DNA of 64,000 bases from Candidatus Eiseniibacteriota bacterium. GTDB lineage: Bacteria > Eisenbacteria > RBG-16-71-46 > CAIMUX01. Where the stretch lies: NCBI GenBank assembly GCA_016712505.1, contig JADJQY010000009.1:234690-298689 (forward strand), given 5' to 3'. Under the pieces are notes generated by a model. That model searched no databases. It saw nothing but the letters and a program-made list of their open reading frames with translations, and had not been told where the DNA came from. Numbering within the stretch: position 1 is the stretch's first letter; the number at the start of each line of letters is the position of its first letter. The translations under genes were made by a program, and so were the position numbers. Shown here piece by piece: positions 11,406 through 57,217 of this stretch.

Positions 11406-11761
11406 TGTCCTCCTTGGTCATCGAGCTCCGTAGGACGGTCCGGGCGGCGACGCGAACTGGTGTGATCGCCTAAACCGGCGTGCCAGGGGGCGGGGCTGAT
11501 GGGGATGGGGGAGGCTTCGGAGGAACGCGAGACGACGCGAGACGGCTCGGGACGACGCGGGTGCGTTGGGCGCGGCCTAACAGCGCGCTGTTGCGGAGAT
11601 CGGGGAGCTCGGTGGGCCGCGGGGGGCGTGGCGCGTGGGCCGCAGGGGCCGTGGGCCGCTGGTGTGCGGAGGATGGAGAGAGTGTCGCGCTGGTCACAGA
11701 GTGAGATCGGTGGGTGACGGGTCGGCCCTGAATTGACGGAGCGGCGCTTGGTGATCGAAAG

Positions 11762-11790
11762 CTGCCCCCGGGGGGAGTGCGGCGGGCGCG
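11762..11790 (+). repeat. Palindromic repeat copy D (ctgcccccggggggag + GTGcggcggg tail)
   Basis: Member of a family of at least 9 copies in window. Confidence 0.7.
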
Positions 11791-12219: not shown

Positions 12220-13710
12220 ATGCCGCTCGCACGTACTGAAGCCGAGAATCTCGAGATCGATCGCCCGACCGTCGCGCCAGATTCAGCGTCCTCTCTTGGC
12301 GCGACTCCACTCGCGCGCACACGACGCGTGGCGGAGCCCTCGGCCCTTTCAGACGCGGAACTGCTTCGATCGGTCGCCCGATGGGCCGCGCTCGAGCGCC
12401 GCACGACGGCGGAACTGCTCCGGCATCTGGCCGAGCTCGATCTACGACATTTGTACCTCGGCGCCGGCTGCGCCTCGACCTTTGCCTACTGCACCGAGCG
12501 GCTCCGCATGTCGGAGTCGGCCGCCTACCATCGCATCACCGCCGCGAGGCTCGGACGTCGCTTTCCCGAGCTGCTGGAGCGACTCGAGGCCTCCGACCTT
12601 CACCTGAGCGGCATCTGTCTGCTCGCGCCGGTGTTGACCGAGGCGAACCTCGCCGACTGGGTCGCGCGCGCGCGCGGTCAGTCGAAGCGCGCGATTGAGC
12701 GGATGCTGCAACGGGAACGAGAGACGGAGAGCGCGAAGGCGCACCTGCCGCGGGTCGACCCGGCCGGAGCGCTCTTCCGCGCGGCGATCGCGGGAGAGGG
12801 ACGCTCGGCCCCGATGGGTGGGCCCAAGGTGGACACGCAGAACGCAGAAGCGGCTCCGGCAGATCGGCTCGCAGTCGGGGACGCGGCTGCTGCCAGCTTC
12901 GTCCCGCGGGAGATCCGGGCTTCGGTCGTGCCTGGCCAGGAACATCGCACGCCCTCGGCGCGACAGGACCGAATCACGGTGACCGTCGATGCGGAGATGC
13001 ATGAGCTGATCGATCAGGCGCGGGACCTGGTGCGACACCGCAATCCCAGCGGGGATCTCGCGACCTTGCTGCGGCTCGCGCTGCGGACGCTGATCGCAGC
13101 GACCGAGCGGCGTCGGTTCGGGCTGCGGCCGAAGACGGAGAACGCGGGTGGCGTTGCTGCGGGTCCTGCCGAGGTGACTGTGGTGGCGACTGCTGCGGTG
13201 GCCTCCAGGGTGCCCCCGGAGGTGACTGCTGAGGTCGCTGCCGTGACGGCGCCGGCTACGGCCGCGAACCCTGCCTATCCGCGACGCAGGGCGCCGCGGC
13301 CGCAAGCACGGAACGCGGGCATCCGATCACGCTACATCCCGGCGGCCGTTCGCCGGGCGGTCTGGCAGCGCGATCGAGGGCGTTGCGCCTTCCGGTCACC
13401 CGATGGGCACCAGTGCGATGCCCGAGGGTTCCTGCAGTTCCATCACCTCGTTCCGTTCGCCCAGGGAGGCGCGCACACCGTGGAGAACCTCGCACTGCGC
13501 TGCGGACCCCACAATCGCTACGAGGCGAAAACGGACCTGGGCGGGATCGCCGTCCGGGTCGCGCGGGGCGACCGTGGGTGCATCCCGCACGGCGATCCGA
13601 CCGGCGAAAGCGATCGCCGAGTGGTGCTCGGCGTCCATACGATTGCGCTCTCCGCTCAACTCCCCGGGGGAGTTGGAGCCCAGGGAAGTCCGGGGAAAGG
13701 ACGAACGTGA
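12220..13710 (+). CDS. DUF222 domain + HNH endonuclease protein (REP13E12-family-like), paralog 1
   Basis: N-terminal 'ELLRHLAELDLRHLYLGAGCASTFAYCTERLRMSESAAYHRITAAR' (DUF222) and C-terminal 'CAFRSPDGHQCDARGFLQFHHLVPFAQGGAHTVENLALRCGPHNRYEA' HNH motif; GGAGG RBS 6 nt upstream of ATG. Confidence 0.8.
   Translation: MPLARTEAENLEIDRPTVAPDSASSLGATPLARTRRVAEPSALSDAELLRSVARWAALERRTTAELLRHLAELDLRHLYLGAGCASTFAYCTERLRMSESAAYHRITAARLGRRFPELLERLEASDLHLSGICLLAPVLTEANLADWVARARGQSKRAIERMLQRERETESAKAHLPRVDPAGALFRAAIAGEGRSAPMGGPKVDTQNAEAAPADRLAVGDAAAASFVPREIRASVVPGQEHRTPSARQDRITVTVDAEMHELIDQARDLVRHRNPSGDLATLLRLALRTLIAATERRRFGLRPKTENAGGVAAGPAEVTVVATAAVASRVPPEVTAEVAAVTAPATAANPAYPRRRAPRPQARNAGIRSRYIPAAVRRAVWQRDRGRCAFRSPDGHQCDARGFLQFHHLVPFAQGGAHTVENLALRCGPHNRYEAKTDLGGIAVRVARGDRGCIPHGDPTGESDRRVVLGVHTIALSAQLPGGVGAQGSPGKGRT
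13657..13700 (+). repeat. Palindromic repeat copy G (caactcccc-g-ggggagttg, 19-nt near-perfect palindrome) at 3' end of HNH gene 1
   Basis: Read directly; followed by 'gagcccagggaagt' resembling intron 5' region. Confidence 0.7.
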
Positions 13711-13836
13711 GTCGCGGGTGAGGCCAGGAGCCTACGTGCTGGATCCTCCTGGTCGCGCCAACCCACTGTCTCCAGCCCCGGCACTCCACCCCGGCCATCG
13801 CGCCACGTGGCCCCTCGCCGCCTGCGCGCGCGCTTC

Positions 13837-20544: not shown

Positions 20545-20566
20545 GGTGAACTTCCCCCGGGGGCAG
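20545..20566 (+). repeat. Palindromic repeat copy A (gaacttcccccgggggcag) forming 5' exon junction of group II intron
   Basis: Immediately followed by GTGTGCG (group II 5' consensus GUGYG). Confidence 0.7.
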
Positions 20567-22506
20567 TGTGCGCCAGGCAAAGCCTGGGAAGGGAGGATGG
20601 TGAGCCTCTGCGGCTCACTTGAAACTCATCGATAGCGACCCGGTGGGTCCGAGTCCCACCCGGCAAAGCTGGCCAGCAGCCGGAACCGAGTGTTGCGTGG
20701 TCCCGAGGCAACTCGGACTGCGAAGCGTACACAGGGAACGAGCAGGCCGTGTGATCGAGCCTCGAAATCGGGCACTTGCGGGAGCCGGCGCTCTACTGTC
20801 AAGCGACGGCAGCAGGTGGACGGTGATTGGCCTTCCGCCCACCTCCCGCCGGGGTCAAAGAGCAGGGCGTGCTCGTGCAAGGGTCGTCCAGGAACCTGGG
20901 AGATCCCGCCTCCTCCTCGCCTCGGGTGAGGCGCCAACGCCGAGGAAACGAAGGCTCTGGTGTGCGGAGTCGGGAAGTCAGAGTGCCTGCGTAGTACCGG
21001 AGAAAGCGGGGAACCGGACCCTTCCGGGACCCGCTGGAGGGAAGGCGGGCGCCGGATCATGGAACCGATGGAAGGAAAGACGCATGGGAACTCTGAGTCC
21101 CCGCAACGTCTCAACGACACTCCAACGGATAGCGGACATGGCCCGGGAATCTCCGGACCGAGTCTTCACCAGCATCCACCATGCGGTGGATCTCGAGCTT
21201 CTGCGGGAAGCGTACCGGCGCACGCGAAAGGACGGGGCAGTAGGGGTAGACGGGCAAGGGTCGGAAACGTTTGCGGCGAACTTGGAGCAGAACCTCCGGT
21301 CCCTCCGCGATCGGCTCAAGCTCGGCACCTACCATGCACCGCCGGTGCGCCGAGTGCACATCCCAAAGGGAGACGGGGCGAAGACGCGCCCGATCGGCAT
21401 CCCGACCTTCGAGGACAAGGTACTTCAAAGGGCGGTGACCATGGTGTTGGAAGCGATCTACGAGCAGGACTTCAAGGACTGCTCCTATGGCTTCCGCCCC
21501 GAACGGTCAGCTCATCAGGCACTGGAAGAGATCTTTCAACGCATGATGAAGATGCACGGCGGGTGGGTGATCGAACTCGACATCGAGAAGTTCTTCGACC
21601 GACTCGACCACCGGAAGCTGCGGGAATTTCTGGACCAAAGGGTGCGTGACGGTGTGCTACGCCGCGCTCTCGACAAGTGGTTGAAAGCGGGGGTTCTGGA
21701 AGAGGAACGGCTGAGTCGCCCTCGGGAAGGAACCCCACAGGGAGGCGTGATCTCTCCGCTTCTCGCCAACGTCTACCTTCATGAAGTGCTCGACCGATGG
21801 TTCCTGGAGCAGATCGTGCCCAGGCTGCGAGGCAACTCCTTCCTGGTTCGGTACGCCGATGATGCCATCCTGGTCTTCTCCTCGGAGGCGGACGCTCGCC
21901 GGGTGCTCGCGGTTCTAGCCCAGCGGTTCAATCGCTTCGGCCTGACCCTGCATCCGGAGAAGACCCGACTGGTTCGGTTCCTCTGTCCACCCTACTTGCG
22001 AAAGGAACGACTCCTGCCTCGCGATGGTGGACCGGAGAGCTTCGACTTCCTCGGCTTCACCCACTACTGGGCGAAGTCGCAGCGAGGCCGGTGGTTGGTG
22101 AAGAAGAAGACCGCGAGTGAGCGTCTTCGGCAGGCCCTCAAGCGGGTCTCTGCCTGGTGCCGACGCGACCGACACCAGAAAGTCGCCTGGCAACACGGTC
22201 GACTGGTTCGAAAGATCCTCGGTCACTTTGCCTACTATGGCGTCACCGGGAACGATCCGCAGCTCTCGCGCTTTCGTGACCGGGTGACCCGCATCTGGCA
22301 ACAGTGGCTGAGTCGCCGATCCCAATCGACCCCCATGCCGTGGGACCGCTTTCACCGCCTGCTCGATCGGTACCCTCTACCGATGCCGCGGATCGTACAC
22401 AGGGTGGGTCACGCAGCCAACCCATGACCGAGGAGCCGGATGCGCGAATCGCGCACGTCCGGATCTGTGGGGGGGGGGCGCCCGCGGGGGTGGCCCCTAT
22501 CCCGAT
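20566..22506 (+). mobile_element. Group II intron (~1.9 kb) with ORF in domain IV
   Basis: 5' end GTGTGCG; 34-nt domain V 'GAGCCGGAUGCGCGAAUCGCGCACGUCCGGAUCU' (AGC triad, AC bulge) at ~22433..22466; DVI-like hairpin with bulged A and ...gat 3' end; boundaries +/- few nt. Confidence 0.7.
21084..22427 (+). CDS. Group II intron-encoded reverse transcriptase/maturase (RT + X domains, no HNH/En domain)
   Basis: RT motifs 'RPIGIPTFEDKVLQ', 'FLVRYADDAILVF' (YADD), 'FLGFTHYW'; RBS GAAGGAAAG upstream of ATG. Confidence 0.9.
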   Translation: MGTLSPRNVSTTLQRIADMARESPDRVFTSIHHAVDLELLREAYRRTRKDGAVGVDGQGSETFAANLEQNLRSLRDRLKLGTYHAPPVRRVHIPKGDGAKTRPIGIPTFEDKVLQRAVTMVLEAIYEQDFKDCSYGFRPERSAHQALEEIFQRMMKMHGGWVIELDIEKFFDRLDHRKLREFLDQRVRDGVLRRALDKWLKAGVLEEERLSRPREGTPQGGVISPLLANVYLHEVLDRWFLEQIVPRLRGNSFLVRYADDAILVFSSEADARRVLAVLAQRFNRFGLTLHPEKTRLVRFLCPPYLRKERLLPRDGGPESFDFLGFTHYWAKSQRGRWLVKKKTASERLRQALKRVSAWCRRDRHQKVAWQHGRLVRKILGHFAYYGVTGNDPQLSRFRDRVTRIWQQWLSRRSQSTPMPWDRFHRLLDRYPLPMPRIVHRVGHAANP

Positions 22507-22523
22507 TCCGGGGGAAGTGCCTG

Positions 22524-23789
22524 CTAGTCCCCCCTCCCGTACTCCGGCACCGACCCGCGGGCGTGGGAGTACTTCGGTGCGTTCACTTCCTGAACGCGTC
22601 GCAAGTACTCCTGCTCGGAGATCTCGGTGCGCCAGTAGCCGGCCAGCCTGGCGGCGTTGATCCCGCCGAAGAAGAGGACGACGACCAGGGCGGCGAACAC
22701 CGTTGGGCGGACCGCGCGCCGCCAGGGGGCGGGCGTTTCGACCGCGAGGGCCGAAGGGACGGGGCAGGCGGCGACACAGGAGAGGCAGCCGAAGCACTCA
22801 TCGGACGACACGCGGGTCGCACGATCGACCGCGAGATTCGACGGACACGCCTTGGCGCAGAGACCGCAGTCGATGCAGTTCTTCGGCGTCCGGGTGATCT
22901 TTAGCGGTGAGAGCAGCGAGGTCACGCCAAGCAGTGCGCCGTAGGGGCAAAGATACCGGCACCAGAAGTAGGGCACGACGATCGAGAGGCCGATCAGCAC
23001 GACCAGCGTCTTCAAGGCAAGGGTCGAGATCTGAGCGAAGAAGAGCATCATCTTGACGTCGGCCACCTTGTTGTACGGCGAGCCGAGGAAGAGCGCCACG
23101 TCGCGCGGGGTCATCTTGACGAAGATGGCGTAGACGAAGAAGGCGAGGAGCAGATACTTGATGCTCCTGAGCGGAAGATCGGCCCAGCGAGGAAGTCGCA
23201 CCCGCGGTGCGCGCATCCGCCGGAGCAGCGGCGCGAACAGGTTCCGACCGATGGCGGCCAGCGACTCGGAGAGGGTGCCGATCGGGCAGAGCCAGGAGCA
23301 GAACGCTTTCTTGAGCAAGAGGCCGGTGGCGACCACCAGGCCGAGAATCACGAAGCCGGCGGGATGGACGCGACTCACCTCGCCGGTCTCGAGCCAATGG
23401 CGGAAGGTGAGGAGGGCGGAGATGGGAAGGAACCCTTCGATGCCGGGGGGACGCGTTCCTTCCAGGCGCCCGGCTTGCAGCGCGAAGACCCAGCGCGTGA
23501 ATTGCCACCCGATCCAGACGATCACGGCGAGGGAGGCGAGCTGAACCCCGAGGCGGAGGTTCTCGATCCGCGCGCGGCGCGCGCGGTACGCAGGTCCCTT
23601 CAGCACCAGCGGCTTCAACGCGGCGCGCAGGGCAGCGCGGTCCGTGCCACGTTCGTCGTTGGGGTCGCTTGCGCGGACGACCGCGCGGTCGTCCGCGCCG
23701 TCGTTCGCGGGATTGCCCGGGGAGAGATCGTCTTGGCCTTCGGCCGGCGCGGTGATCGTGGCTTCGGAGAGAAGAGGATTCGTCGACAT
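22524..23789 (-). CDS. Membrane-bound 4Fe-4S polyferredoxin (NapH/MauN-like)
   Basis: Multiple TM helices with CxxC motifs ('FCSWLCPIG', 'WCRYLCPYG') and two ferredoxin motifs 'CIDCGLCAKACP', 'CFGCLSCVAACP'; start set at internal ATG (MSTNPLL). Confidence 0.55.
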   Translation of the reverse strand: MSTNPLLSEATITAPAEGQDDLSPGNPANDGADDRAVVRASDPNDERGTDRAALRAALKPLVLKGPAYRARRARIENLRLGVQLASLAVIVWIGWQFTRWVFALQAGRLEGTRPPGIEGFLPISALLTFRHWLETGEVSRVHPAGFVILGLVVATGLLLKKAFCSWLCPIGTLSESLAAIGRNLFAPLLRRMRAPRVRLPRWADLPLRSIKYLLLAFFVYAIFVKMTPRDVALFLGSPYNKVADVKMMLFFAQISTLALKTLVVLIGLSIVVPYFWCRYLCPYGALLGVTSLLSPLKITRTPKNCIDCGLCAKACPSNLAVDRATRVSSDECFGCLSCVAACPVPSALAVETPAPWRRAVRPTVFAALVVVLFFGGINAARLAGYWRTEISEQEYLRRVQEVNAPKYSHARGSVPEYGRGD

Positions 23790-23956
23790 CTCGATTCCCT
23801 TTCCGAGTTCATAAGAAGACATTCGGACCAAAAGATCCTAATAGCAGTATCGGATCTGATGCCACGGTGGTCAATCAGAATATGGAGCTTATGCGGGCGA
23901 GCTGCTCAATCCAGCTAACGCAAAGTCTTACATATTGTTGACGAATCGAGGTTCGG

Positions 23957-25060
23957 TCATCCGATTGGCGTGTAGTGGGTCGTCCGCTGCACCGGCGTGA
24001 ATCCGGCTTCCCGGATCAGGGTCCGGATCTCCTCGACCGTGGTCTTCACTTCGTGTCCGGTCGCGAGGTGGACGTTCTCCTCGAAGATCGTTCCCCCGAA
24101 GTCGTCGGCGCCGTAGTGGAGCGCGATCTGACCGGTCTTCTTTCCCTCGCTGAACCACGAGGCCTGCACGTGGTCGAAGTTGTCGAGGTAGAGGCGGCTG
24201 GCGGCGAGGATGCGGCAGTAGCGTGCGGCTCCGGCGGGCTTGCGGCCGAGCGCGTCGATCCGAGCCTGCATCGGCGTGTTCCCCTTCTTGTAGGACCAGG
24301 GGACGAAGGCGGTGAAGCCGCGGGTCTCGTCCTGGAGCTCGCGGATCCGCTCGAAGTGCTCGATCAGGTCCTCGTCCTCTTCGATGTGGCCATACATCAT
24401 CGTCGCGGTCGAACGGTAGCCGAGCTGGTGCGCCGTGCGGTGCACTTCGAGCCAGGTGTCGGCGCCCCCCTTCTTGGCCGCGACCTTGAGGCGGATTCGA
24501 TCCGAAAGCACCTCGGCGCCACCGCCGGGGATGCTGCTCTGTCCGGCGTCCTTCAATTGCTGCAGCACTTCGCGGACGCTCAGGTTCGAGACCTTGGCCA
24601 TCTGGTGGATCTCGCTCGCGGTGAAGTAGTGCGGGGTCACGTCGGGAAAGCGGCGACAGGTCTCGCGCACCAGCGAGACGTAGTAGTCGAGTGGTAGATC
24701 CGGATTGTGACCGCCCTGGAGCAGGACCGTGGTTGCGCCCAACTCCGCCGCGCGCCCCACCCGCTCCATCACCTGCTCGACCGAGAGGGTGTATCCCTCG
24801 GAATGGCCCGGCTTCCGATAGAAGGCGCAGAAGGCGCAGTCAGTGGTGCAGATGTTGGTGTAGTTGGGGTTCGAGTCGATGACGTAGGTGACCTGATCCG
24901 CCGGAGCGCGGCGCGTGCGCAATTCGTGCGCGACCTGACCTAGCTCGGAGAGGGGAGCGTCCTGGAGGAGGACCAGCCCGTCCTGGCGATTCAGGCGGGC
25001 TCCGCCGCGGCATTTCTCGACGATCTCGTTCCAGCTCGAGCGGGTCATGGTGGCGTTCAT
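23957..25060 (-). CDS. mqnC: Radical SAM enzyme of the futalosine pathway, probably cyclic dehypoxanthine futalosine synthase (MqnC)
   Basis: 'YVIDSNPNYTNICTTDCAFCAFY' CxxxCxxC radical SAM motif in MqnC/MqnE-like context; MqnC vs MqnE assignment by motif resemblance only. Confidence 0.55.
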   Translation of the reverse strand: MNATMTRSSWNEIVEKCRGGARLNRQDGLVLLQDAPLSELGQVAHELRTRRAPADQVTYVIDSNPNYTNICTTDCAFCAFYRKPGHSEGYTLSVEQVMERVGRAAELGATTVLLQGGHNPDLPLDYYVSLVRETCRRFPDVTPHYFTASEIHQMAKVSNLSVREVLQQLKDAGQSSIPGGGAEVLSDRIRLKVAAKKGGADTWLEVHRTAHQLGYRSTATMMYGHIEEDEDLIEHFERIRELQDETRGFTAFVPWSYKKGNTPMQARIDALGRKPAGAARYCRILAASRLYLDNFDHVQASWFSEGKKTGQIALHYGADDFGGTIFEENVHLATGHEVKTTVEEIRTLIREAGFTPVQRTTHYTPIG

Positions 25061-25160
25061 GGGTCTCTTCGTTGTGGTGCGAGGGGTGGTGGAAGCGGGC
25101 AGCGCCAGATCGGACGCTGCCCGATTGGGCACTGCCCGATCGGACACTGCCCGCGTGCGA

Positions 25161-25790
25161 CTAGTGGTAGATGTCGACCGTGACCGTCCCCACGATGTTG
25201 AGGTCGACCCGGAGTTCCCAGTCGAAGCTGGTCGAGGCCCCGGTCGGTTGCGAGACCCCGGCCGCGGCGTACTTCAGCGTGATGTCCGAATCGACGCCCG
25301 CCTTGAGGTCGGCGAGCAGATCGTCGAGCGCGTCGTTCAGCACCGAGACTCCGGCGGGGGCGAGCGAGACTTCGGTCCAGTCGGTCGCGGTGTCGACGTC
25401 GAGTTCGAAGTCGGACACGAGCGAGGCGAGCGCGCCGCCGTCCCGCCCGACCGCGACCGTGCCGTCGGCGATGTGACGGCCAGGGTTGGGGTCTGGGACG
25501 GTGCAGCGGACATAGACGGCGGCCAGACTCAGATCGGTCAGGTCGGCGACGTCCACCCCGTTGTCGTCCAGGATCTCACGAATGTCGATGTCCTGGCCGA
25601 GGTTGAACTCCTCTTCCTGGGCGTAGGTATTGATGATGCCGCGGGCCTGGAACTCCTGAACGGCGGAGCCGACGACCGCGAGCTCCACGGTCCGCTCTTC
25701 CGCCTCCGGAATGAGCGGACAGCCGCTGCCGGCGAGCAGCATCCAGGCGCACGCGAGTGCCGCAGATGAAGCAAAGATACGGGCACGCAT
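25161..25790 (-). CDS. Hypothetical lipoprotein
   Basis: Signal peptide ending ...LLAGSGC (lipobox-like); acidic; no family recognised. Confidence 0.45.
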   Translation of the reverse strand: MRARIFASSAALACAWMLLAGSGCPLIPEAEERTVELAVVGSAVQEFQARGIINTYAQEEEFNLGQDIDIREILDDNGVDVADLTDLSLAAVYVRCTVPDPNPGRHIADGTVAVGRDGGALASLVSDFELDVDTATDWTEVSLAPAGVSVLNDALDDLLADLKAGVDSDITLKYAAAGVSQPTGASTSFDWELRVDLNIVGTVTVDIYH

Positions 25791-25803
25791 TACTGGATCC
25801 TCC

Positions 25804-26748
25804 TCAGTTTCCGAAGCTCAGGCCGAGCGCGACGGTGTTGGCCGCGGCGAGGTTGAACTCGATGTGGGCCTTCACGACCGGCAGGTTGGCGAGCAACCCG
25901 ACCGTTCCGTGCAGGTTGGTTTCCTTCTCGAAGTCGACCGAGATCTCGTCCACCGTCTCGATCCCGTCGGTCAACTCGTAGACCAGGTCCATCTCGAACG
26001 AGTCGTAGCCGACGCCGACGTAGGGCTGGAGCAGGCCGAAGTGCTTGCTCCCGGTGACGTCGAGGTGCAGCGCCTTGGTTTCGAGCAGATGGTCGCCCAG
26101 GTTGAAGGTCTGGTAGAACCCACCCACCGCGAGGTCGACCGGAAGATCCGGGATGTACTGGGTGATCGAGTGCTGTGCGCCGAGGCCGAGGAGTTCCAGG
26201 TCGCCCAGGTCCTCGCTCTCGTCGCCGAGCTTGACCGCGATCCAGCGGGCCGTGATCCGGGTGCCGAGCAGGTTGCCGATCGTGAGCTGCGGGACCGCGA
26301 TGCTGAAGTCGTCGATGTCGAACCCGCCGGAGAAGTAGTGCTGCGTGCCCGCCTCCCCGGGACGCAGTACGGCTTCCGTATCGCCGATGACCGTCGGGAC
26401 GATCGCCTCGTCCGCGTCACCTGGGCCATAGACCGCAGTGTAGGTCCGGTCGGCATCGTCGAACTGGGCCGACATGAGCTGAACCCCGAACTTGATGTTG
26501 AGGCCCTCCTTCGGCACGTCACCGGTCTGGAAGATCGACGTGTTGAGTGTGCTCGAGAGCGCGGTCGGGAGCGGGGAGAGATACCCCTCGGCGTTCTTGC
26601 CGGTGAGCCCGCTCACCCCGGCCGAGAGCTGTGCCTGTGAGACCTGCGTGAGTGTGAGCGTTGCGACCAGCGCCAACGCCGCCCTGACCAGGATTCCGGT
26701 CAGAGCGGAGCGGCGGGCGCCTCCTTGACGACAGTTCATGGGAGCCAT
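25804..26748 (-). CDS. Putative outer-membrane beta-barrel/porin-like protein
   Basis: RBS GGAGAAAGG directly upstream of ATG; signal peptide ...TQVSQA; alternating amphipathic strands, aromatic near C-terminus (...LSFGN). Confidence 0.4.
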   Translation of the reverse strand: MAPMNCRQGGARRSALTGILVRAALALVATLTLTQVSQAQLSAGVSGLTGKNAEGYLSPLPTALSSTLNTSIFQTGDVPKEGLNIKFGVQLMSAQFDDADRTYTAVYGPGDADEAIVPTVIGDTEAVLRPGEAGTQHYFSGGFDIDDFSIAVPQLTIGNLLGTRITARWIAVKLGDESEDLGDLELLGLGAQHSITQYIPDLPVDLAVGGFYQTFNLGDHLLETKALHLDVTGSKHFGLLQPYVGVGYDSFEMDLVYELTDGIETVDEISVDFEKETNLHGTVGLLANLPVVKAHIEFNLAAANTVALGLSFGN

Positions 26749-26787
26749 CCTTTCTCCGGGACAACAGGCGAACACTGATCGCGCAGA

Positions 26788-27705
26788 TTATCCGCCCTTT
26801 TTGGGGGGTGTCAACGCGCCGCCCGGCCAGACGCTGACCGCGATCCCACCGAGAATCATCGCCCCGAACCCGAGCACGGTTGCGTGCAATCGATCCGTGC
26901 CCCAGATCGGGCCGAAGGCGACGGCCAGCGGCGGGTTCAGAAGGACGAAGGCGGCCACGCTGCTGGCCGGCAGGTGGCGCAGCGCGGCGTACCAGATCGC
27001 GAACCCCACGATGGTGCAGAGCAGCCAGAGGTGGATCCAGGCGACGTGGTCCGCGACCGCGAAGGCAAGGAACTCCGCGCGCACCGAAGATTGGAACAAC
27101 GGGGCAAAGAGAAACGGAAGGCTGCCGATCCCGAGCGAGATGTAGGTGACCCGGACCGGCGACTCCCGCTGCACCAAGGGGCGCCCCAGGAGCGTGGCGA
27201 CCGCCCAGGAGAGCGGGGCAAGAAGCGTCACCAGGGCGTGGGTGGTGTAGCTGGCCCCGAGGTCACGCCCCTGGCTCCGCAGGAGCAGGAAGACGCCGGT
27301 GAAGGCGACGGCGAGCCCGATCGCCTTCCGGGCCTGGAATCGCTCCTGCCGGATGAGCAGTGCGATGCCGTAGGTGAGGATCGGGTTGGTCGCGATCAGA
27401 AGAGCCGCGGTCCCGGCGGCGACCAGTCCCTGGCCCCAGTTGAGGCAGAGGTTGTAGATCGGCACCATCAGGAGGCCCATCAGGACAAGTCTCAGCGGAT
27501 GGGCGCGCAGGATGCGGAGATTCTCACTCGGGCGAGACAGGCCCGCCCAGATTAGGCAGAAGAGCCCGACCGGGGCGAAGCGCAGCGTGATCAGATCCCA
27601 GGCGGAAACGGTGCGTCGGAGCCAGCCGATCGCGTGGAACGAGTTCGACCAGAAGAGGAAGAGGATCAGGATCGCCGCGAACCAGGCGAGGGGGCGATCC
27701 TTCAC
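26788..27705 (-). CDS. EamA/DMT-family transporter
   Basis: 10 predicted TM helices, duplicated EamA-like halves; GTG start overlapping mqnA stop (GTGA). Confidence 0.7.
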   Translation of the reverse strand: MKDRPLAWFAAILILFLFWSNSFHAIGWLRRTVSAWDLITLRFAPVGLFCLIWAGLSRPSENLRILRAHPLRLVLMGLLMVPIYNLCLNWGQGLVAAGTAALLIATNPILTYGIALLIRQERFQARKAIGLAVAFTGVFLLLRSQGRDLGASYTTHALVTLLAPLSWAVATLLGRPLVQRESPVRVTYISLGIGSLPFLFAPLFQSSVRAEFLAFAVADHVAWIHLWLLCTIVGFAIWYAALRHLPASSVAAFVLLNPPLAVAFGPIWGTDRLHATVLGFGAMILGGIAVSVWPGGALTPPKKGG

Positions 27706-28715
27706 GGGGCGGTGAAGCGAGGCGGCGTTGTGACCGGCCCCGGCTCGGTCAGGAGACCGTGCCGGCGCACGAGGCGCTGGTACTCGGCCGCGGCCTCCTC
27801 CTCGGGCGCGCCGAGGCGATAGGTGAATCCGCGGAGATAGGACGTCAGGTGTTCGCGGTCGCCCAGATCGGCCGGGAGGTCGCGGGTCAGTTCCGGCAGG
27901 CGCGAGAGGCCGCGACTCAGCGATTCCCCGAGGAAACGGCCGAGCCAGACCTTGGCCTCGTCGGGCAGTTCGCGCCGCACCGACCAGCGGGCGAAGACGA
28001 ACGGCAGGTCTTTCCAGTCGCGCCAGGCGGCGGAGAGATCGATTGCTTGCACGAAGCCGGCAGGCGGCCGGTGTTGCCAGCGGAGCGCGAGGTCGCCGAT
28101 CACCAGGGCGGCGTCGAGCGCGTCGGGTCCGCTCGCCGTGATGGCGTCATCGAGGGCCAGCGGCAGACGGCGGTAGCTCTCGGGCTGGACTCCGTAGCGC
28201 ACCTCGAGCAGGAGCCGCAGCAGCCGGAAGGAGGTCGAGGTCTCGCCGGTCACCCCGATCGTCGCGCCGTCGAGGCGGTGTGCCTCGGCACGACTCAGAT
28301 CCTGGCCGGCGGCGAAGCGCGGGCTGGGCGAGTGGGTGCCGGAAGGAGACTCGAGAACCCGCGCCGCGCGTACGAAGAGGAGCACGCTCTCGACCCGATC
28401 TTGGTTGGCGATCCCGAAGGTTTCGCGCTCCGGCTGCGCGGGGACGACGATCGGCTCGAACTGATCCTCCAGCCGCGTCAGGTCCGCCAGGGCCATCAGC
28501 CCGGCGTCGATTTCTCCCGCTTCCGCCGCCTGTCCGAGCTGTCGTGGCGGGAGGTCGACCGAGGTCCAGAGCCCCTCGCTCCGGGGCTCCAGTTCCGACC
28601 AGGAAACGTAGAAGGGAGCGGAGTTGAGGTAGGGGATCCGCGCCACCCGGGCCGGTCGGAGCAATCCGGCGACCGAGGTCCGTTCACCGCGGGCGTCGTG
28701 CCGCGCGTCCGTCAT
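27702..28715 (-). CDS. mqnA: Chorismate dehydratase (MqnA), futalosine pathway
   Basis: 'RIPYLNSAPFY' N-terminal motif typical of MqnA; GGGAGAG RBS 7 nt upstream. Confidence 0.7.
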   Translation of the reverse strand: MTDARHDARGERTSVAGLLRPARVARIPYLNSAPFYVSWSELEPRSEGLWTSVDLPPRQLGQAAEAGEIDAGLMALADLTRLEDQFEPIVVPAQPERETFGIANQDRVESVLLFVRAARVLESPSGTHSPSPRFAAGQDLSRAEAHRLDGATIGVTGETSTSFRLLRLLLEVRYGVQPESYRRLPLALDDAITASGPDALDAALVIGDLALRWQHRPPAGFVQAIDLSAAWRDWKDLPFVFARWSVRRELPDEAKVWLGRFLGESLSRGLSRLPELTRDLPADLGDREHLTSYLRGFTYRLGAPEEEAAAEYQRLVRRHGLLTEPGPVTTPPRFTAP

Positions 28716-28757
28716 GAGCCTGCTCTCCCTGGCGTCCCGTCCGGGCCGCGCCCACGA

Positions 28758-30095
28758 CTACGCCCCCGCGACGACCTGGCCGGGGGCTGTGACCTGTCCT
28801 GTCGATGCGATGTCTCCGGTCGCGGTGCCCGGCTCCGACGCGCGGATCGGGTAGCGGTCCACGATGTTGTAGAGCGCGTCGCGCTCGACCGGGATCTTCC
28901 CGGCCTCCCGGATCATCTGCAGAATCCGTTCGCGCGCCAAGCCTACCGGACTCTCGGCCAGCGCGGCGTGGGCGATCTTCTCCTCGAAGATCGTGCCGTC
29001 GATGTCCGAGGCGCCGAAGTTGAGTCCGACCGAGGCGGTGTCCTCGCCGAGCATCACCCAGTACGACTTGATGTGGGGCATGTTGTCCATCAGCAGGCGG
29101 GCCGCCGCGATCGTCTTCAAGTCCTCCACCGCCGAGGGGCCGCGCTTCACGATGTCGGAGTATCCGGTCTGGAAGGCGAGAGGGATGAAGGCGAGGAATC
29201 CAGGTGCCTCGTCCTCCAGCTCGCGGAGGAGCAGCATGTGGTCGACCCGTTCTTCGTGGGTCTCGATGTGCCCGTAGAGCAGGGTGGAGTTGGTCGGAAT
29301 TCCCATGCGATGGGCGATGCGGTGGACATTGAGCCACGCCTCGGCGCCGATCTTCTTCGGGAAGAGCTCCGCGCGGACCCGTTCGGAGAAGACCTCCGCT
29401 CCGCCGCCCGGCATCGAGTCGAGCCCCGCCTCGACCAGGGTCTCGAGTACCCGTTCGATCGAGAGCTTCGCGATCTTGGCGAAGAAGTCGATCTCGACCG
29501 CCGTATAGGCCTTGATCTGGATGGTGGGGAAGGCGCGCCGGATCTGCCGCACCACGTCGACGTAGTAGTCGAAGCGCCACTGGTGGTGCAGTCCGCCCAC
29601 GATGTGCACCTCGCGCAGCTCCGGGCTCAGCTTGGCCAGCACCTGGTCGATCGACATCGCGTACCCCTTCGGATCGAGCGGGTGGTGCGCGTAGTCACAG
29701 AACTTGCAGTCGAGCACACAGAGGTTGGTCGGGTTCACCTGCCGGTTGAAGACGAAGTAGGCCTGGTCGCCGTGGAGTTGGGTCTTCCGCCAGTCCGCCA
29801 TCGCGCCCAGGCCATTCAGGTCGGGGGAGGCGAAGAGGGTCAGGCCGTCGGACCTGGTCAGGCGTTCGCCCGTTTGCACCTTGCGCCAGATCGGCTCGAG
29901 CGCCGGGTCGCGGAAGCGGAGGTCCGGCTCCGGGCGCGGTTGGCCGTTGAGAAAGGCAGCGCTTTCAGGCTGGCCGTCCGGCAGGTGACTCCGCGCGCGA
30001 TTCCGTTCCGGGGCGCGTGCGGCGGCCGCGGTCAGGTCGGCCTCCGCCAGCTCCTTGGTCGACTGCCAGAGCGAGTCTTGCGTGGGTTCGGTCAT
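28758..30095 (-). CDS. mqnE: Radical SAM enzyme, probably aminodeoxyfutalosine synthase (MqnE)
   Basis: 'FVFNRQVNPTNLCVLDCKFCDYA' radical SAM motif; start set at MTEPTQ with GAGGA RBS, track N-terminal extension is R/P-rich and rejected. Confidence 0.55.
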   Translation of the reverse strand: MTEPTQDSLWQSTKELAEADLTAAAARAPERNRARSHLPDGQPESAAFLNGQPRPEPDLRFRDPALEPIWRKVQTGERLTRSDGLTLFASPDLNGLGAMADWRKTQLHGDQAYFVFNRQVNPTNLCVLDCKFCDYAHHPLDPKGYAMSIDQVLAKLSPELREVHIVGGLHHQWRFDYYVDVVRQIRRAFPTIQIKAYTAVEIDFFAKIAKLSIERVLETLVEAGLDSMPGGGAEVFSERVRAELFPKKIGAEAWLNVHRIAHRMGIPTNSTLLYGHIETHEERVDHMLLLRELEDEAPGFLAFIPLAFQTGYSDIVKRGPSAVEDLKTIAAARLLMDNMPHIKSYWVMLGEDTASVGLNFGASDIDGTIFEEKIAHAALAESPVGLARERILQMIREAGKIPVERDALYNIVDRYPIRASEPGTATGDIASTGQVTAPGQVVAGA

Positions 30096-30243
30096 CGTCC
30101 TCTTCCGTTGGTCGTTGGGCCGGCGGGCGTCTGGTTGCCGGGAGAATAGCGGCTTCGCGGGCGGCTGTCGACCGGGTGCGGGGGACGGGGGCGAGGTGCC
30201 CGCGCATGGTCCGGAGTGTGACTGGGCCGCCTCGACGCGGGTG

Positions 30244-30300
30244 GGGTGGTCGAACTGTCCCCGGGGGGAGTGTGCGGCGCGGCGACGATGGCTGCGGGCG
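30244..30300 (+). repeat. Palindromic repeat copy C (gaactgtccccggggggag + GTGTGCGGCG...GGTTGGATGGTCGAGC tail)
   Basis: Read directly; tail shares 'ggttggatSgtcgagc' with copies B and D. Confidence 0.7.
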
Positions 30301-30329
30301 GGTTGGATGGTCGAGCGGGCGGGAGGCGG

Positions 30330-30520
30330 GGGCGCGAGACGGGAGGCGCGAGGCGCGAGGCCGCGCGGGTGGCGGGACGTGAGGCGCGCGACGCGGGGCG
30401 CGGGGTGCGGGGCGCGCGGCGCGAGGCGCGGCGGCGCAGGCGGTTGGTAAGACGGGAGACGAGGCACGCGGGGCGAGGGCGACGGGAAAGCCGGGGAAGT
30501 GAAAGGTGAGTTGCGAGGAG
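30330..30520 (+). repeat. Cryptic purine/GC-rich simple repeat (gaggcgcg/ggcgcgg units)
   Basis: Degenerate tandem 'gaggcgcgaggcgcgaggccgcg...' tract upstream of HNH paralog 2. Confidence 0.6.
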
Positions 30521-30866
30521 TGAGGTGCGAGGGGTGAGAAGCTAGAGGGGAAAGGTGAGGCGCAAGGCGACGGGCGCAAGACGCGAGGCTTGCCGCGAAG
30601 TCCGTCGAGACGGCCGCAGAAAGTGAGTGTCGTGGCGATTTTGAGTTGACGGAGTCTGCGGATCAGCGTTCCGGACATTGCCGTGCGACCGCAGGACTGG
30701 TCGGTGATGCCGTCGGGTGGGACCACACGGGAGATCGCGTTGCTCTGGTCGCTCGCTGGTGCAACGGACCCAGTTCGTCGTGCCTTGGGCAACCCACAGG
30801 CTCGAAAGGAGCGGGCCTATCATTCCTGAAGCACGGTAGGTGAAGGGCAGCACGGGGAGGTTGCGC

Positions 30867-32354
30867 ATGATCGGAGGAAGAATGGAGCGATCGGAGCTGG
30901 ATTCGAGCGTTGATTCCCTGGTCGCGAATGGCCGGGAGTTGTCGTCACGCGGAGAGGTGGAACGCTTGGCCGATCACGACCTGATCCGTGCGGTCATCGC
31001 GCTTGCCGGGCGGGCGCGAGCGGTTACCGCCGAGTTGCTGGTGCACCTGGGCGAGCTGGATGCTCGTCGCCTGCACCTTGCCGCCGGGTGCGCATCGACC
31101 TTTGCGTACTGTATCGAAGTTCTCCGGATGTCTGAACCTGCCGCGTACCATCGCATCACCGCCGCCCGCGCTGCTCGGAAGTTCCCCGCGCTGGTGCGCC
31201 ATCTCCGGTCCGGGGAACTCCATCTGAGCGGCGTCTGCTTGCTCGCTCCTGTCCTGACCGAGGCGAACGTCGATCACTGGATCGCGCGGGCGCGCGGACA
31301 ATCGAAGCGCGCCCTCGAGCGACTCCTGGGTGCTTCGCAGGCTGCCCGCATGTCGGCCGCCCACGACACCGCCCGTGACGCCACGGCCAGAAAGGCGTCC
31401 GAAGAGGGGGCGACCGGCTCGGACTCCTCGGCCCTCATTGCTGGGGTGGAGGCGACAGCGGGCGACCGCGGGGAGCGAGCTGAGCAGCAGGTTCGACCTG
31501 GCCAAGTCGGACCAGAGCCAGCTCGCGCGCGCGACGCTCGCGATCGGAGCGACTGGGACGACGGAGGTAACGGAGCTGGGTCGCGAGAGCAGGCCGCCGC
31601 GGTGAAGGTCGGTGCCGGCTCCTCGGCTGTGGCGCCGCTACGCGCGCTGCGTGACCTGCGCGTGCCGGTAGATCCTGAGTTCCTCGATCTGCTCGATGCC
31701 GCACGCGACCTCGCTCGGCATCGCAATCCCTCGGGTGACCTGACGACCTTGCTGCGCCTCGCCCTTCAGGCGCTGATCCAGCAGACGGAGTCACGGCGGT
31801 GCGGCCGCGCGGTGACGGCGACGAAAGGCGAGCCACCGAGCGAAACGCCGAGGCAAGAAGAGGCTTCCGCCCGTGGAGATTCGGTCGCTGCGGTGAGTGT
31901 CCAGCGTGATGTTGCCGGATCACCGCCTCGCGCCGCGACGGAACCCTCCGGTATCACTCGGGCTTGTCCTCAGGTTCACCCGTCGCGGTCCCGCTACATC
32001 CCTGTTGCCGTCCGACGCGAAGTATGGCGACGCGACGGCGCTCGCTGCGCCTTCGTCGCGGAGGACGGCCGACGCTGCACGTCGCGAGCCTTCCTCGAGT
32101 TTCATCACCTGGTGCCGTTCGCTCTCCGCGGCGACCACTCCGTTCCGAACCTCGCCCTCCGCTGCCAACCGCACAACAAGTACGAAGCGGAACTCGCGTT
32201 CGACCTGGGTGCACAGCGGACGCGCGAACTTCCCCCGGGGGGAGTGTGCGGCGGGCAAAGCCCGGGAAGTTGGGATGTCGAGCCCCCAAGGCTCGCTTGT
32301 GGCGCAGCGACGGCGACTCGAGACCCCGCGGCGGCGCTCCTGGCTTTCGCTTGA
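30867..32354 (+). CDS. DUF222 domain + HNH endonuclease protein, paralog 2
   Basis: Same N- and C-terminal blocks as paralog 1 ('HLGELDARRLHLAAGCASTFAYCIEVLRMSEPAAYHRITAAR', 'CAFVAEDGRRCTSRAFLEFHHLVPFALRGDHSVPNLALRCQPHNKYEA'); 3' end of ORF reads through palindrome/intron-like repeat B. Confidence 0.8.
   Translation: MIGGRMERSELDSSVDSLVANGRELSSRGEVERLADHDLIRAVIALAGRARAVTAELLVHLGELDARRLHLAAGCASTFAYCIEVLRMSEPAAYHRITAARAARKFPALVRHLRSGELHLSGVCLLAPVLTEANVDHWIARARGQSKRALERLLGASQAARMSAAHDTARDATARKASEEGATGSDSSALIAGVEATAGDRGERAEQQVRPGQVGPEPARARDARDRSDWDDGGNGAGSREQAAAVKVGAGSSAVAPLRALRDLRVPVDPEFLDLLDAARDLARHRNPSGDLTTLLRLALQALIQQTESRRCGRAVTATKGEPPSETPRQEEASARGDSVAAVSVQRDVAGSPPRAATEPSGITRACPQVHPSRSRYIPVAVRREVWRRDGARCAFVAEDGRRCTSRAFLEFHHLVPFALRGDHSVPNLALRCQPHNKYEAELAFDLGAQRTRELPPGGVCGGQSPGSWDVEPPRLACGAATATRDPAAALLAFA
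32226..32300 (+). repeat. Palindromic repeat copy B followed by ~75 nt closely matching the group II intron 5' end
   Basis: 'gtgtgcggcgggcaaagcccgggaagttgggatgtcgagcc...ggctcgcttg' vs intron 'gtgtgcgccaggcaaagcctgggaagggaggatggtgagcc...ggctcacttg'. Confidence 0.7.
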
Positions 32355-39620: not shown

Positions 39621-39643
39621 GATTGTCCCCGGGGGCAGTCCCC
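39621..39643 (+). repeat. Palindromic repeat copy I (gattgtccccgggggcagtcccc) downstream of 37650..39578
   Basis: Read directly; resembles the inferred uninterrupted intron target. Confidence 0.6.
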
Positions 39644-51008: not shown

Positions 51009-51040
51009 CAACTCTCCCCGGGGAGAGAGTCGGCGGCGGG
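51009..51040 (+). repeat. Palindromic repeat copy H (caactctccccggggagagagt + cggcggcggg tail)
   Basis: Near-perfect 22-nt palindrome. Confidence 0.7.
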
Positions 51041-57193: not shown

Positions 57194-57217
57194 CAACTTC
57201 CCCCGGGGACAGTGCGA
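57194..57217 (+). repeat. Palindromic repeat copy F (caacttcccccggggacagtgcga)
   Basis: Read directly; solo copy. Confidence 0.6.

What the first reader, a model, noticed from the sequence alone, without database searches (positions are those of the whole stretch)
20545..32300. Palindrome-plus-GTGYG repeat family: group II intron homing site and intron 5'-end-like footprints flanking the HNH elements
At least nine copies of a motif are present: a near-perfect palindrome (aacttccccc/gggggaagtt type) immediately followed by 'GTGTGCGGCGGG...GGTTGGATGGTCGAGC'. One copy (20545) is the 5' exon junction of a full-length group II intron. Copy B (32226) then matches the intron's first ~75 nt closely ('caaagcccgggaag...ggctcgcttg'). 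Copies C, D, H and G share progressively weaker similarity to the same region. So the sequence flanking the HNH elements resembles the intron's domain-I 5' terminus. Either the intron repeatedly invaded this palindrome and decayed to 5' stubs, or the intron captured or evolved from the element terminus. The inferred uninterrupted target 'cttcccccgg-gggcagt-ccgggggaag' is a 10-bp-stem hairpin, which recalls class C introns that home to terminator-like stems.
Basis: seen in the sequence. Interest (0 to 1): 0.7.

Follow-up and report, generated by a model that had tools for sequence, protein, structure and literature searches.

The report
Group II intron homing into palindromes
A mobile group II intron in a Candidatus Eisenbacteria genome is aimed by RNA-DNA base pairing at a short palindromic repeat that also caps a family of selfish HNH nuclease genes, and at least one decayed intron head sits beside such a repeat; this is normal retroelement behaviour at an unusual target.

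Summary
The window has nine copies of an 18-20 bp palindrome (ACT-NN-CCCCGGGG-NN-AGT), against 1.2 expected by chance. One copy (20550-20567) abuts an intact group II intron at 20568-22506, which starts GTGCG, not GTGTG. The intron's EBS1 (ACUGUC, 20795-20800) and EBS2 (UCGGG, 20768-20772) pair with the right arm and centre of the palindrome. Across 25 related introns both pairings track the cognate exon (0 of 5000 permutations each). So this is sequence-directed, IIB-like homing, not class C hairpin recognition. A 95%-identical intron sits directly after the same palindrome at four or more other sites in metagenomes. Only copy B (32246-32320) is a statistically secure intron 5' stub. Copies at 30272 and 13674 are suggestive. 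The other five palindromes have no detectable intron sequence. All seven HNH loci examined carry the palindrome just after the HNH motif. In two other genomes it is followed by a decayed or partial copy of this intron. The intron 5' end is ancestral to a wide intron family, so it was not captured from the HNH element. Loss of the 3' end is a published decay pattern. Verdict: real, largely explained, moderately interesting.

The parts
20550..20567 (+). Palindrome P3 (ACTTCCCCCGGGGGCAGT). It is the 5' exon end and homing site, holding IBS2 (CCCGG, positions -12 to -8) and IBS1 (GGCAGT, -6 to -1).
20568..22506 (+). Full-length group II intron, 1939 nt, from GTGCG to CCCGAT.
   Evidence: Rfam hits. 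Boundaries fixed by relatives in other sites.
20768..20772 (+). EBS2 (UCGGG), in the internal loop of domain I.
   Evidence: Cognate against non-cognate exon pairing, 0/5000 permutations.
20795..20800 (+). EBS1 (ACUGUC), in the terminal loop of domain I.
   Evidence: Complementary to GGCAGU. Covaries with the exon across 25 introns, 0/5000 permutations.
21084..22427 (+). Intron-encoded reverse transcriptase/maturase, 447 aa. YADD is intact and there is no endonuclease domain.
   Evidence: TIGR04416 at 351.8 bits against a cut-off of 300; Pfam RVT_1 only.
22431..22506 (+). Domains V and VI, ending at the 3' splice site.
   Evidence: RF00029 at 44 bits; coordinates.
22508..22518 (+). 3'-exon segment CCGGGGGAAGT, complementary to the left arm of P3. 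This feature is specific to this site.
   Evidence: It is absent at the other occupied sites.
32228..32245 (+). Palindrome P5, at the 3' end of the HNH2 gene.
32246..32320 (+). Copy B: a decayed 5' stub (intron nt 1-75) from a diverged member of the same intron lineage.
30254..30271 (+). Palindrome P4, upstream of HNH2.
30272..30316 (+). Possible eroded stub of the B type (GTGCGGCG...GGTTGGATGGTCGAGC). The evidence is only suggestive.
   Evidence: Anchored alignment to B, p = 0.0013 (random windows) and 0.009 (shuffles).
13659..13673 (+). Palindrome P2, at the 3' end of HNH1.
13674..13715 (+). Possible eroded intron 5' stub. The evidence is only suggestive.
   Evidence: Anchored alignment to the intron, p = 0.002 and 0.0013.
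11761..11778 (+). Palindrome P1, upstream of HNH1. Its flank shows no significant intron similarity.
39622..39639 (+). Solo palindrome P6, between convergent genes. It is an unoccupied perfect IBS2/IBS1 target.
51011..51030 (+). Palindrome P7, upstream of HNH3. Its flank is not intron-like.
53687..53707 (+). Palindrome P8, at the 3' end of HNH3. Its flank similarity is not significant.
57196..57213 (+). Solo palindrome P9, between convergent genes. It is an unoccupied perfect target.
12220..13710 (+). HNH1 gene, identical to MBK8232193.1.
30867..32354 (+). HNH2 gene, identical to MBK8232207.1. The annotated ORF reads through P5 and stub B.
52180..53802 (+). HNH3 gene (MBK8232223.1 belongs to the same 90% cluster).
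30318..30442 (+). A 7-nt tandem array (GGCGCGA, 17.6 copies) in the HNH2 leader.
51528..51645 (+). An 8-nt tandem array (GGTGCGCG, 14.8 copies) in the HNH3 leader. It offers a non-intron source of GTGCG-like strings.

Best explanation
An active retroelement sits at 20568-22506. It is a group II intron with a IIB-like domain I and a reverse transcriptase/maturase that has no endonuclease domain. Its homing site is a dispersed 18-20 bp palindrome.

The palindrome is recognised by base pairing. EBS2 (UCGGG) pairs with the CCCGG centre, and EBS1 (ACUGUC) pairs with the GRCAGU right arm. The intron RNA therefore reverse-splices exactly at the 3' edge of the palindrome.

The same palindrome is a fixed feature of the 3' end of a family of DUF222-like HNH genes. 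It also occurs upstream of them, alone and as doublets. So the HNH genes and the solo palindromes supply many safe, non-essential target sites.

Intron copies that land there later decay by losing internal and 3' sequence. This leaves the palindrome plus 45-140 nt of the intron's 5' end. Copy B is such a remnant, derived from a diverged sister intron.

Shown: boundaries, EBS/IBS pairing, multiple independent insertions, one secure stub in the window, and decayed copies beside HNH genes elsewhere.

Inferred: that the intron is currently active, that it inserts into the lagging-strand template, and that the weak flanks at 30272 and 13674 are older stubs.
For: - **Intron identity:** Rfam D1D4-6 and D5/D6 hits, and an intact RT/maturase with YADD.
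- **Boundaries:** relatives sitting in different sites fix both ends.
- **EBS1:** cognate exons pair over a mean run of 5.56, against 3.11 for non-cognate exons.
- **EBS2:** 4.82 against 3.52. Both pairings give 0/5000 permutations.
- **Independent insertions:** a 95%-identical intron lies directly after AACTNNCCCCGGGGNNAGT at four or more distinct sites with unrelated 3' exons. A second intron subtype follows the same palindrome in L019.
- **Copy B:** 0/3000 controls reach its score. By eye, it keeps both 5' hairpins through paired changes (A-U to G-C, U-A to C-G).
- **Decayed copies beside HNH genes elsewhere:** in L103/L104 an HNH gene is flanked by the palindrome plus intron nt 2-128 and 470-594 upstream, and by the palindrome plus nt 2-140 downstream.
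- **Second MAG:** the tail of MCC7142592.1 is the translated palindrome plus intron nt 2-100, with 24 of 36 residues identical.
- **Palindrome at the HNH 3' end:** present in all seven loci examined.
- **Published decay pattern:** bacterial group II introns decay by fragmentation with loss of the 3' terminus (PMC4496777).
- **Strand:** the intron and every stub are on the + strand, which has positive GC skew. This fits the known lagging-strand-template preference of endonuclease-less introns (the preference itself is from established knowledge).
Against: - Only one stub in the window is statistically secure.
- Three perfect IBS2/IBS1 targets in the window are empty (39639, 57213, and 30254 on the - strand), so occupancy is low.
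- No 3' fragment of the intron or its RT was found in the window. The 5' bias is therefore not explained beyond the literature precedent. It may partly reflect ascertainment or selection on the palindrome.
- No splicing or mobility data exist.
- The source genome could not be surveyed beyond the 64 kb window.
Confidence: 0.75

Rival explanations
1. Class C-like structural targeting. The intron recognises the palindrome as a DNA stem-loop, as IIC introns recognise terminators and attC sites, with only a short IBS1.
For: - Every occupied site has the intron directly after an inverted repeat.
- The ligated exons of the window site fold into an 11-bp hairpin at -13.5 kcal/mol, and the L001 site folds at -12.2.
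- The IEP lacks an endonuclease domain, as IIC IEPs do.
- IIC reverse transcriptases are among the top PDB hits.
Against: - EBS2 is present and covaries with the exon. IIC introns lack EBS2 (the IIC property is from established knowledge).
- IBS1 is 6 nt and lies inside the arm, not after the stem.
- IEP relatives at 69-74% identity home to hairpin-free coding sites by the same EBS loops.
- The palindrome at P3 alone folds weakly, at -2.1 kcal/mol.
- PDB scores do not separate IIC from the IIA protein LtrA: 168.8 against 167.2 bits.
- The review PMC4424553 lists hairpin targeting for class C only.
Confidence: 0.08
2. The intron's 5' terminus was captured from, or evolved out of, the terminus of the HNH or palindrome element.
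For: The palindrome followed by GTGCG recurs at HNH flanks, and HNH leaders carry GGTGCG-type arrays.
Against: - The first 100 or so nt (GUGCGCCAGGCAAAGCCUGG...) are conserved in more than 30 relatives from Acidobacteriota, Planctomycetota, Gemmatimonadota and Proteobacteria, which have unrelated exons and no palindrome.
- GUGYG is universal in group II introns.
- The stubs stop inside domain I, and L103 retains later intron and IEP-start sequence, as decay products would.
Confidence: 0.03
3. Apart from copy B, the 'GTGYG' flanks are not intron footprints. They are G+C-rich element sequence, from the HNH leaders and their 7-8 nt GGTGCGCG/GGCGCGA arrays, or they are chance. This reading is compatible with the main explanation but denies a stub family in this window.
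For: - Five flanks are non-significant.
- The family profile finds none of them.
- blastn and tblastn with the whole intron and IEP find only B.
- Tandem arrays with a GGTGCG core lie in HNH leaders here and in L102.
- B against C gives p = 0.009 with composition-matched shuffles. That does not survive correction for about 28 tests.
Against: - P4_R shares its first 8 nt exactly with B, and also a 13-of-15 block (GTTGGATGGTCGAGC) in the right register.
- P2_R aligns from position 1 with the intron, p = 0.0013.
- Other HNH loci clearly have intron remnants on both sides.
Confidence: 0.45
4. The palindrome is the cis-acting end or target of an uncharacterised mobile element driven by the HNH nuclease. 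Full copies would be palindrome-leader-HNH-palindrome, and palindrome doublets would be MITE-like derivatives. The intron would be a secondary parasite of that element. This is compatible with the main explanation.
For: - Six of the nine palindromes in the window bracket HNH genes.
- The palindrome lies at the 3' end of all seven HNH loci examined, and in the protein tails of four further homologues.
- HNH2 is flanked by 29-nt direct repeats with two mismatches.
- Doublets occur in L016, in frame inside an HNH gene linker, and in L021, in an intergenic region.
Against: - No empty site was recovered and there is no evidence of transposition.
- The paralogues are only 70-80% identical, so none is a recent copy.
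- No biochemical link between the HNH protein and the palindrome is known.
- The solo palindromes lie between convergent genes, as ordinary REP or terminator-like repeats do.
Confidence: 0.25

Closest known systems
Bacterial class C (IIC) group II introns that insert after intrinsic terminators or into attC stem-loops (B.h.I1, S.ma.I2; PMC1702495, PMC4424553)
   Same: The IEP has no endonuclease domain. The intron lands immediately 3' of an inverted repeat, in non-coding and gene-distal positions, giving many safe sites per genome.
   Different: This intron has an EBS2 and a 6-nt EBS1 that read the palindrome sequence itself. Its close relatives use ordinary homing sites. There is no T-run and no spacing between the stem and the insertion point. 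The RNA matches Rfam D1D4-6, and the 516-nt 5' part is longer than I would expect for a IIC ribozyme (from my own knowledge; not checked here).
RmInt1 (class D) of Sinorhizobium meliloti, which homes into the insertion sequence ISRm2011-2
   Same: It is an endonuclease-less intron that targets another repeated selfish element by EBS/IBS pairing. It shows replication-strand bias. Its genomic copies decay by fragmentation with loss of the 3' terminus, leaving persistent remnants (PMC4496777, PMC4181065).
   Different: The target here is a short palindrome at the end of an HNH gene or standing alone, not a site inside a transposase gene. The IEP lineage is different (class not determined).
REP / BIME palindromic repeats, the elements that target them (IS1397, ISPpu10; PMC1525189), and RAYT 'REPtrons'
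   Same: A short G+C-rich palindrome is dispersed in intergenic regions, often between convergent genes. It occurs solo and as doublets, is used as a landing pad by mobile elements, and flanks a nuclease-type gene.
   Different: The flanked gene is an HNH protein, not a Y1 RAYT transposase. Copy number beyond this window is unknown. The mobile element using the repeat is a retroelement guided by RNA pairing.
REP13E12 / DUF222-HNH repeat family of Mycobacterium (Gordon et al. 1999, cited in PMC10589994)
   Same: Multi-copy genes of about 1.4-1.6 kb encode a helical N-terminal domain plus a C-terminal HNH motif. They are presumed selfish and their mechanism is unknown.
   Different: The window proteins do not reach the Pfam DUF222 threshold. 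To my knowledge, a conserved terminal palindrome and association with group II introns have not been described for REP13E12.

Membership tests
Bacterial ORF-containing group II intron | Domain V/VI and domain I-IV RNA structure | tested here: met
   RF00029 scores 44.0 bits (gathering score 40) at 22431-22506. RF02005 scores 134.7 bits (gathering score 49) at 20650-20864.
Bacterial ORF-containing group II intron | RT/maturase ORF in domain IV | tested here: met
   TIGR04416 scores 351.8 bits against a cut-off of 300. Pfam RVT_1 has E = 3.9e-38. YADD is present.
Bacterial ORF-containing group II intron | GUGYG 5' end, AY 3' end, and EBS1-IBS1 pairing with the 5' exon | tested here: met
   The intron runs from GTGCG at 20568 to GAT at 22506. 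EBS1 ACUGUC pairs with GGCAGU, and the pairing tracks the cognate exon across 25 introns.
Class C (IIC) group II introns | No EBS2-IBS2 pairing; only a short (3-4 nt) IBS1 | tested here: not met
   The EBS2 loop tracks the cognate exon at positions -7 to -15 (0/5000 permutations). IBS1 is 6 nt.
Class C (IIC) group II introns | Lineage-wide insertion after stem-loops (terminators, attC) | tested here: not met
   IEP relatives at 69-74% identity sit in LVIVD-repeat coding genes and other sites with no palindrome. More distant ones sit at IS3 orfA-like ends.
Class C (IIC) group II introns | IEP falls in the class C clade | tested here: inconclusive
   phmmer against PDB gives IIC reverse transcriptases 168.8 and 165.3 bits, LtrA (IIA) 167.2 and GsI-IIC 140.1, so there is no discrimination. 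No reference class sequences were available for a tree.
REP elements / REPtrons | Short, imperfect palindrome repeated in intergenic DNA | tested here: met
   Nine copies against 1.24 expected. Three solo copies lie downstream of genes, two of them between convergent genes.
REP elements / REPtrons | Association with a RAYT (Y1 transposase) gene flanked by inverted REPs | not tested
   The genes flanked by palindromes in the window are HNH genes. The window's other ORFs were not screened for a Y1 transposase, and the rest of the genome could not be searched.
DUF222-HNH (REP13E12-type) proteins | C-terminal HNH motif | tested here: inconclusive
   Pfam HNH scores 24.4 bits for HNH3 and 21.2 for HNH1, against a cut-off of 21.4. 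HNH2 has no hit. The aligned motif HH...N...H/N is invariant in 12 homologues.
DUF222-HNH (REP13E12-type) proteins | N-terminal DUF222 (PF02720) domain | tested here: not met
   None of the three window proteins hits PF02720 at E <= 0.001. One distant homologue (P0216) carries it. The resemblance otherwise rests on my recollection of the family.

The most novel reading that the evidence does not exclude
The palindrome is not a generic REP. It is the functional end or target of a previously undescribed mobile element driven by an HNH (DUF222-like) nuclease: palindrome, tandem-array leader, HNH gene, palindrome. Palindrome doublets would be its MITE-like derivatives. A group II intron lineage has retuned EBS1/EBS2 to parasitise that element's terminus. 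This would be a three-layer nest of selfish elements, and a non-IIC route to the niche of living behind a hairpin.
Probability: 0.22. Interest if true: 0.65.

Novelty: new variant of a known kind. Interest (0 to 1): 0.42.

Why it matters
Group II introns are said to choose DNA sites in three ways: ordinary homing sites, terminators and attC sites. The last two are confined to class C (PMC4424553). This intron shows that a non-IIC intron can occupy the same niche, landing behind a repeated palindrome outside essential genes, simply by tuning EBS1/EBS2 to the palindrome sequence. It is therefore a natural example of retargeting towards a multi-copy safe site.

It also ties the intron's spread to a poorly understood family of HNH selfish genes in an uncultured phylum. 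It gives those genes a defined, conserved terminal motif that can be tested. In practice, annotated HNH ORFs in these MAGs read through the palindrome and intron stubs, so their C-terminal tails are artefacts.

Tried and rejected
- **Genome scan for the motif.** I scanned 185,579 species genomes for AACTNNCCCCGGGGNNAGTGTGCG and found nothing, so the source lineage is not among the representatives.
- **Metagenome scan.** The same pattern gave six loci. It was biased by requiring GTGTGCG, so it cannot show how often GTGCG follows the palindrome.
- **Viral-contig scan.** The bare palindrome gave 13 unrelated hits in contigs of widely varying G+C content, which were uninformative.
- **Rfam at E <= 10 over 29800-33200.** No further intron domains lie near HNH2. 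This rejects the idea that the HNH gene sits inside an intron shell with its own D5/D6.
- **Four look-ups of NCBI-only HNH proteins** returned no DNA. One IEP look-up also returned no DNA.
- **Intron class.** I could not assign it from PDB scores, from Rfam family names or from papers.
- **HNH element inserted into an intron.** L103 has intron nt 1-128 and 470-594 upstream of the HNH gene. The downstream side restarts at intron nt 2 instead of continuing from 595, so a simple insertion is rejected.
- **Stubs as conserved functional RNAs.** The HNH2 orthologue in a second MAG carries an A-type, not a B-type, intron head. The flank is therefore not retained by orthology.

Full report
**What is in the sequence**

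The window is 66.8% G+C. It matches a 434,901-nt contig of a Candidatus Eisenbacteria MAG. Two of its HNH proteins are identical to MBK8232193.1 and MBK8232207.1.

A flexible pattern for the palindrome ACT-N(1-3)-CCC..GGG-N(1-3)-AGT finds nine copies, at 11761, 13659, 20550, 30254, 32228, 39622, 51011, 53687 and 57196. A hundred dinucleotide-preserving shuffles give a mean of 1.24 and a maximum of 5. The repeat family is therefore real. It spans the whole window, with only three copies inside the stated coordinates.

**The intron and its boundaries**

Rfam places a D1-D4 model (RF02005, 134.7 bits) at 20650-20864 and domains V/VI (RF00029, 44 bits) at 22431-22506. The ORF at 21084-22427 encodes a 447-aa group II RT/maturase. 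It scores 351.8 bits on TIGR04416 against a cut-off of 300, has RVT_1 as its only Pfam domain, and keeps YADD.

Relatives in other sites fix the ends.
- An IEP 69% identical sits in three paralogous LVIVD-repeat genes, with the junctions ...CTACTGGTT|GTGCGCC and ...CGCGAT|.
- An IEP 95% identical has the junctions ...AGT|GTGCGCC and ...CCCGAT|.

The intron is therefore 20568-22506. It begins GTGCG, and the whole palindrome belongs to the 5' exon.

**How the target is read**

I aligned domain I of 29 related introns. The terminal loop that holds ACUGUC in the window intron (20795-20800) is complementary to the last six or seven exon bases in almost every case. Examples are AACCAGU with ACTGGTT, GGGACG with CGTCCC, and UACCAU with ATGGTA.

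An internal loop holding UCGGG (20768-20772) is likewise complementary to exon positions around -8 to -13. Examples are UCCACU with AGTGGA and GUACCG with CGGTAC.

I compared cognate with permuted intron-exon pairs.
- EBS1: mean pairing run 5.56 for cognate pairs against 3.11 for non-cognate pairs.
- EBS2: 4.82 against 3.52.
- No permutation out of 5000 reached the cognate value for either pairing.

In the window, EBS1 pairs with GGCAGU (20562-20567) and EBS2 pairs with CCCGG in the palindrome centre. It also shows IIB-like recognition through two pairings, which class C introns lack.

The review PMC4424553 states that hairpin or terminator and attC targeting is confined to class C. PDB comparison of the IEP does not discriminate between classes. 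All relatives tested match the same Rfam model, and I could not map that model to a named class.

**Is the palindrome a real homing site?**

The 95%-identical intron occurs in metagenome contigs from several samples. In each it lies directly after AACTGCCCCCGGGGGCAGT or AACTCTCCCCGGGGAGAGT. The contigs have at least four different upstream sequences and unrelated 3' exons: TCGGAGCATG, TCGGAGCGGC, TCGAC and AGCATC. A different intron subtype follows AACTGTCCCCGGGGACAGT in L019.

The complementary 3'-exon arm in the window (CCGGGGGAAGT, 22508-22518) is absent at those sites.
- In the window it lets the ligated exons form an 11-bp hairpin at -13.5 kcal/mol with IBS1 in the loop.
- P3 on its own folds at only -2.1 kcal/mol.

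**The stubs**

Copy B (32246-32320) is secure.
- It shows 77% ungapped identity over 95 nt including the palindrome.
- Its local alignment score is 45, against a null of 20.9 +/- 2.6.
- blastn gives E = 5.7e-5 for the 75 nt alone.
- In anchored alignment, 0/3000 controls reach its score.
- By eye, its differences from the intron include paired changes that keep both 5' hairpins. It therefore derives from a diverged sister intron, not from decay of this copy.

Two flanks are suggestive.
- The flank at 30272 shares its first 8 nt and a 13-of-15 block with B (p = 0.0013 or 0.009, depending on the null).
- The flank at 13674 aligns with the intron from position 1 (p = 0.002 or 0.0013).

With about 28 comparisons made, neither is safe on its own.

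The flanks of P1, P6, P7, P8 and P9 are not significant. A family-level profile finds only B. Sensitive blastn and tblastn with the whole intron and IEP find nothing else in the window.

HNH leaders contain tandem arrays of GGTGCGCG (51528-51645) and GGCGCGA (30318-30442), which also occur in L102. These give a non-intron source of GTGCG-like strings to the left of the HNH genes.

**The link with the HNH genes**

Three diverged paralogues, 70-80% identical in blocks, are each bracketed by palindromes. The palindrome lies 40-175 nt after the HNH motif in all three. The same holds in L102, L103/L104 and L120/L121, and in the translated tails (NSPRGQ/E) of four further homologues.

In L103/L104, whose HNH protein is 53% identical (best local alignment to HNH3), the gene is flanked as follows.
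- Upstream: the palindrome plus intron nt 2-128 joined to nt 470-594.
- Downstream: the palindrome plus nt 2-140.

In a second Eisenbacteria MAG, the last 36 residues of the HNH2 orthologue MCC7142592.1 are the translated palindrome plus intron nt 2-100, with 24 of 36 identical.

The simplest reading is that the palindrome at the end of each HNH gene attracts the intron, which then decays.

Loss of the intron's 3' terminus, with fragments persisting, is a described pattern for bacterial group II introns (PMC4496777).

The reverse idea, that the intron took its terminus from the element, fails. The same 5' sequence is conserved in relatives from several phyla that have unrelated exons.

**Other features**

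The intron and all stubs lie on the + strand, which has positive GC skew throughout the window. Three perfect IBS2/IBS1 targets are empty:
- 39639 (+ strand, position +1 = C);
- 57213 (+ strand, position +1 = G);
- 30254 (- strand).

Four of the five occupied sites have T at +1, and the fifth has A. This fits a requirement at +1. It also fits the preference of endonuclease-less introns for the lagging-strand template, which is established knowledge. Both points are inferences.

The solo palindromes lie downstream of ordinary genes, two of them between convergent genes.

**What remains open**

- The intron's class is not determined.
- The reason for the 5' bias of the remnants is not explained.
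- The nature of the palindrome itself is unresolved.

Six of the nine copies bracket HNH genes, and HNH2 has near-identical 29-nt direct repeats. Palindrome doublets exist elsewhere, one of them in frame inside an HNH gene linker. This leaves room for the palindrome being the end or target of a mobile element driven by the HNH nuclease. I could not recover an empty site, because the collection scans and contig look-ups were exhausted.

**Verdict**

This is a real and mostly explained feature: a group II intron homing by base pairing into a palindromic repeat that caps HNH selfish genes. The window holds one secure and two possible decayed copies. It is a new variant of known retroelement behaviour, of moderate interest.

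Noticed in passing
window 30318-30442 and 51528-51645; L102 314-445: The leaders upstream of the HNH genes carry 7-8 nt G+C-rich tandem arrays (GGCGCGA, 17.6 copies; GGTGCGCG, 14.8 copies). They are followed by about 500 nt that is 70% conserved between HNH3 and L102. This could be a protein-binding array or a regulatory region.
   Followed up: partly
L016 521-601; L021 442-521: Two palindromes about 45 nt apart form a doublet unit that occurs in both orientations. In L016 it lies in frame within the variable linker of an HNH gene, where each palindrome reads LAPGPV. In L021 it is intergenic. It looks like a MITE.
   Followed up: partly
L011, L012, L013 (one metagenome sample, three long contigs) and L105: Introns with a 69%-identical IEP occupy the same conserved position in LVIVD-repeat genes. 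Three paralogous genes from one sample carry one, so this is multi-copy homing within a gene family.
   Followed up: partly
L030 2379, L032 2378: More distant relatives begin UUGCG rather than GUGCG. They sit right after a ...ILKKA/ILKKG coding end, typical of IS3-family orfA. That is another case of an intron living inside a mobile element.
   Followed up: no
window 30867-32354, 11836-13710, 52033-53802: The annotated or longest HNH ORFs read through the palindrome and, for HNH2, through intron stub B. The C-terminal tails in database entries such as MBK8232207.1 and MCC7142592.1 are therefore probably translation artefacts.
   Followed up: yes
window 39639 (+), 57213 (+), 30254 (-): These are perfect IBS2/IBS1 matches to the intron that remain unoccupied. 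On the + strand, position +1 is C or G instead of the T seen at most occupied sites.
   Followed up: partly
window 50388-50581: An 18-nt tandem repeat, about 10.8 copies with 36- and 72-nt superperiods, lies inside a long ORF. It probably encodes a hexapeptide-repeat segment.
   Followed up: no
window 23957-25147 and 28758-30100, with 27702-28715: Two CofH/MqnC-type radical SAM genes and a VitK2_biosynth (MqnA-like) gene form a futalosine-pathway menaquinone cluster. HNH2 and its palindromes lie immediately upstream of it, in divergent orientation.
   Followed up: partly
window 42306-47019: Adjacent long ORFs on the - strand share blocks that are 61-78% identical (repeat families D5, D8, D13). 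They appear to be tandem paralogues of a large membrane protein.
   Followed up: no
window 11750-11788 vs 30245-30284: Similarity between the left flanks of HNH1 and HNH2 begins about 10 nt before the palindrome (GGTGRTCGAA). If these are element ends, the palindrome is subterminal.
   Followed up: no
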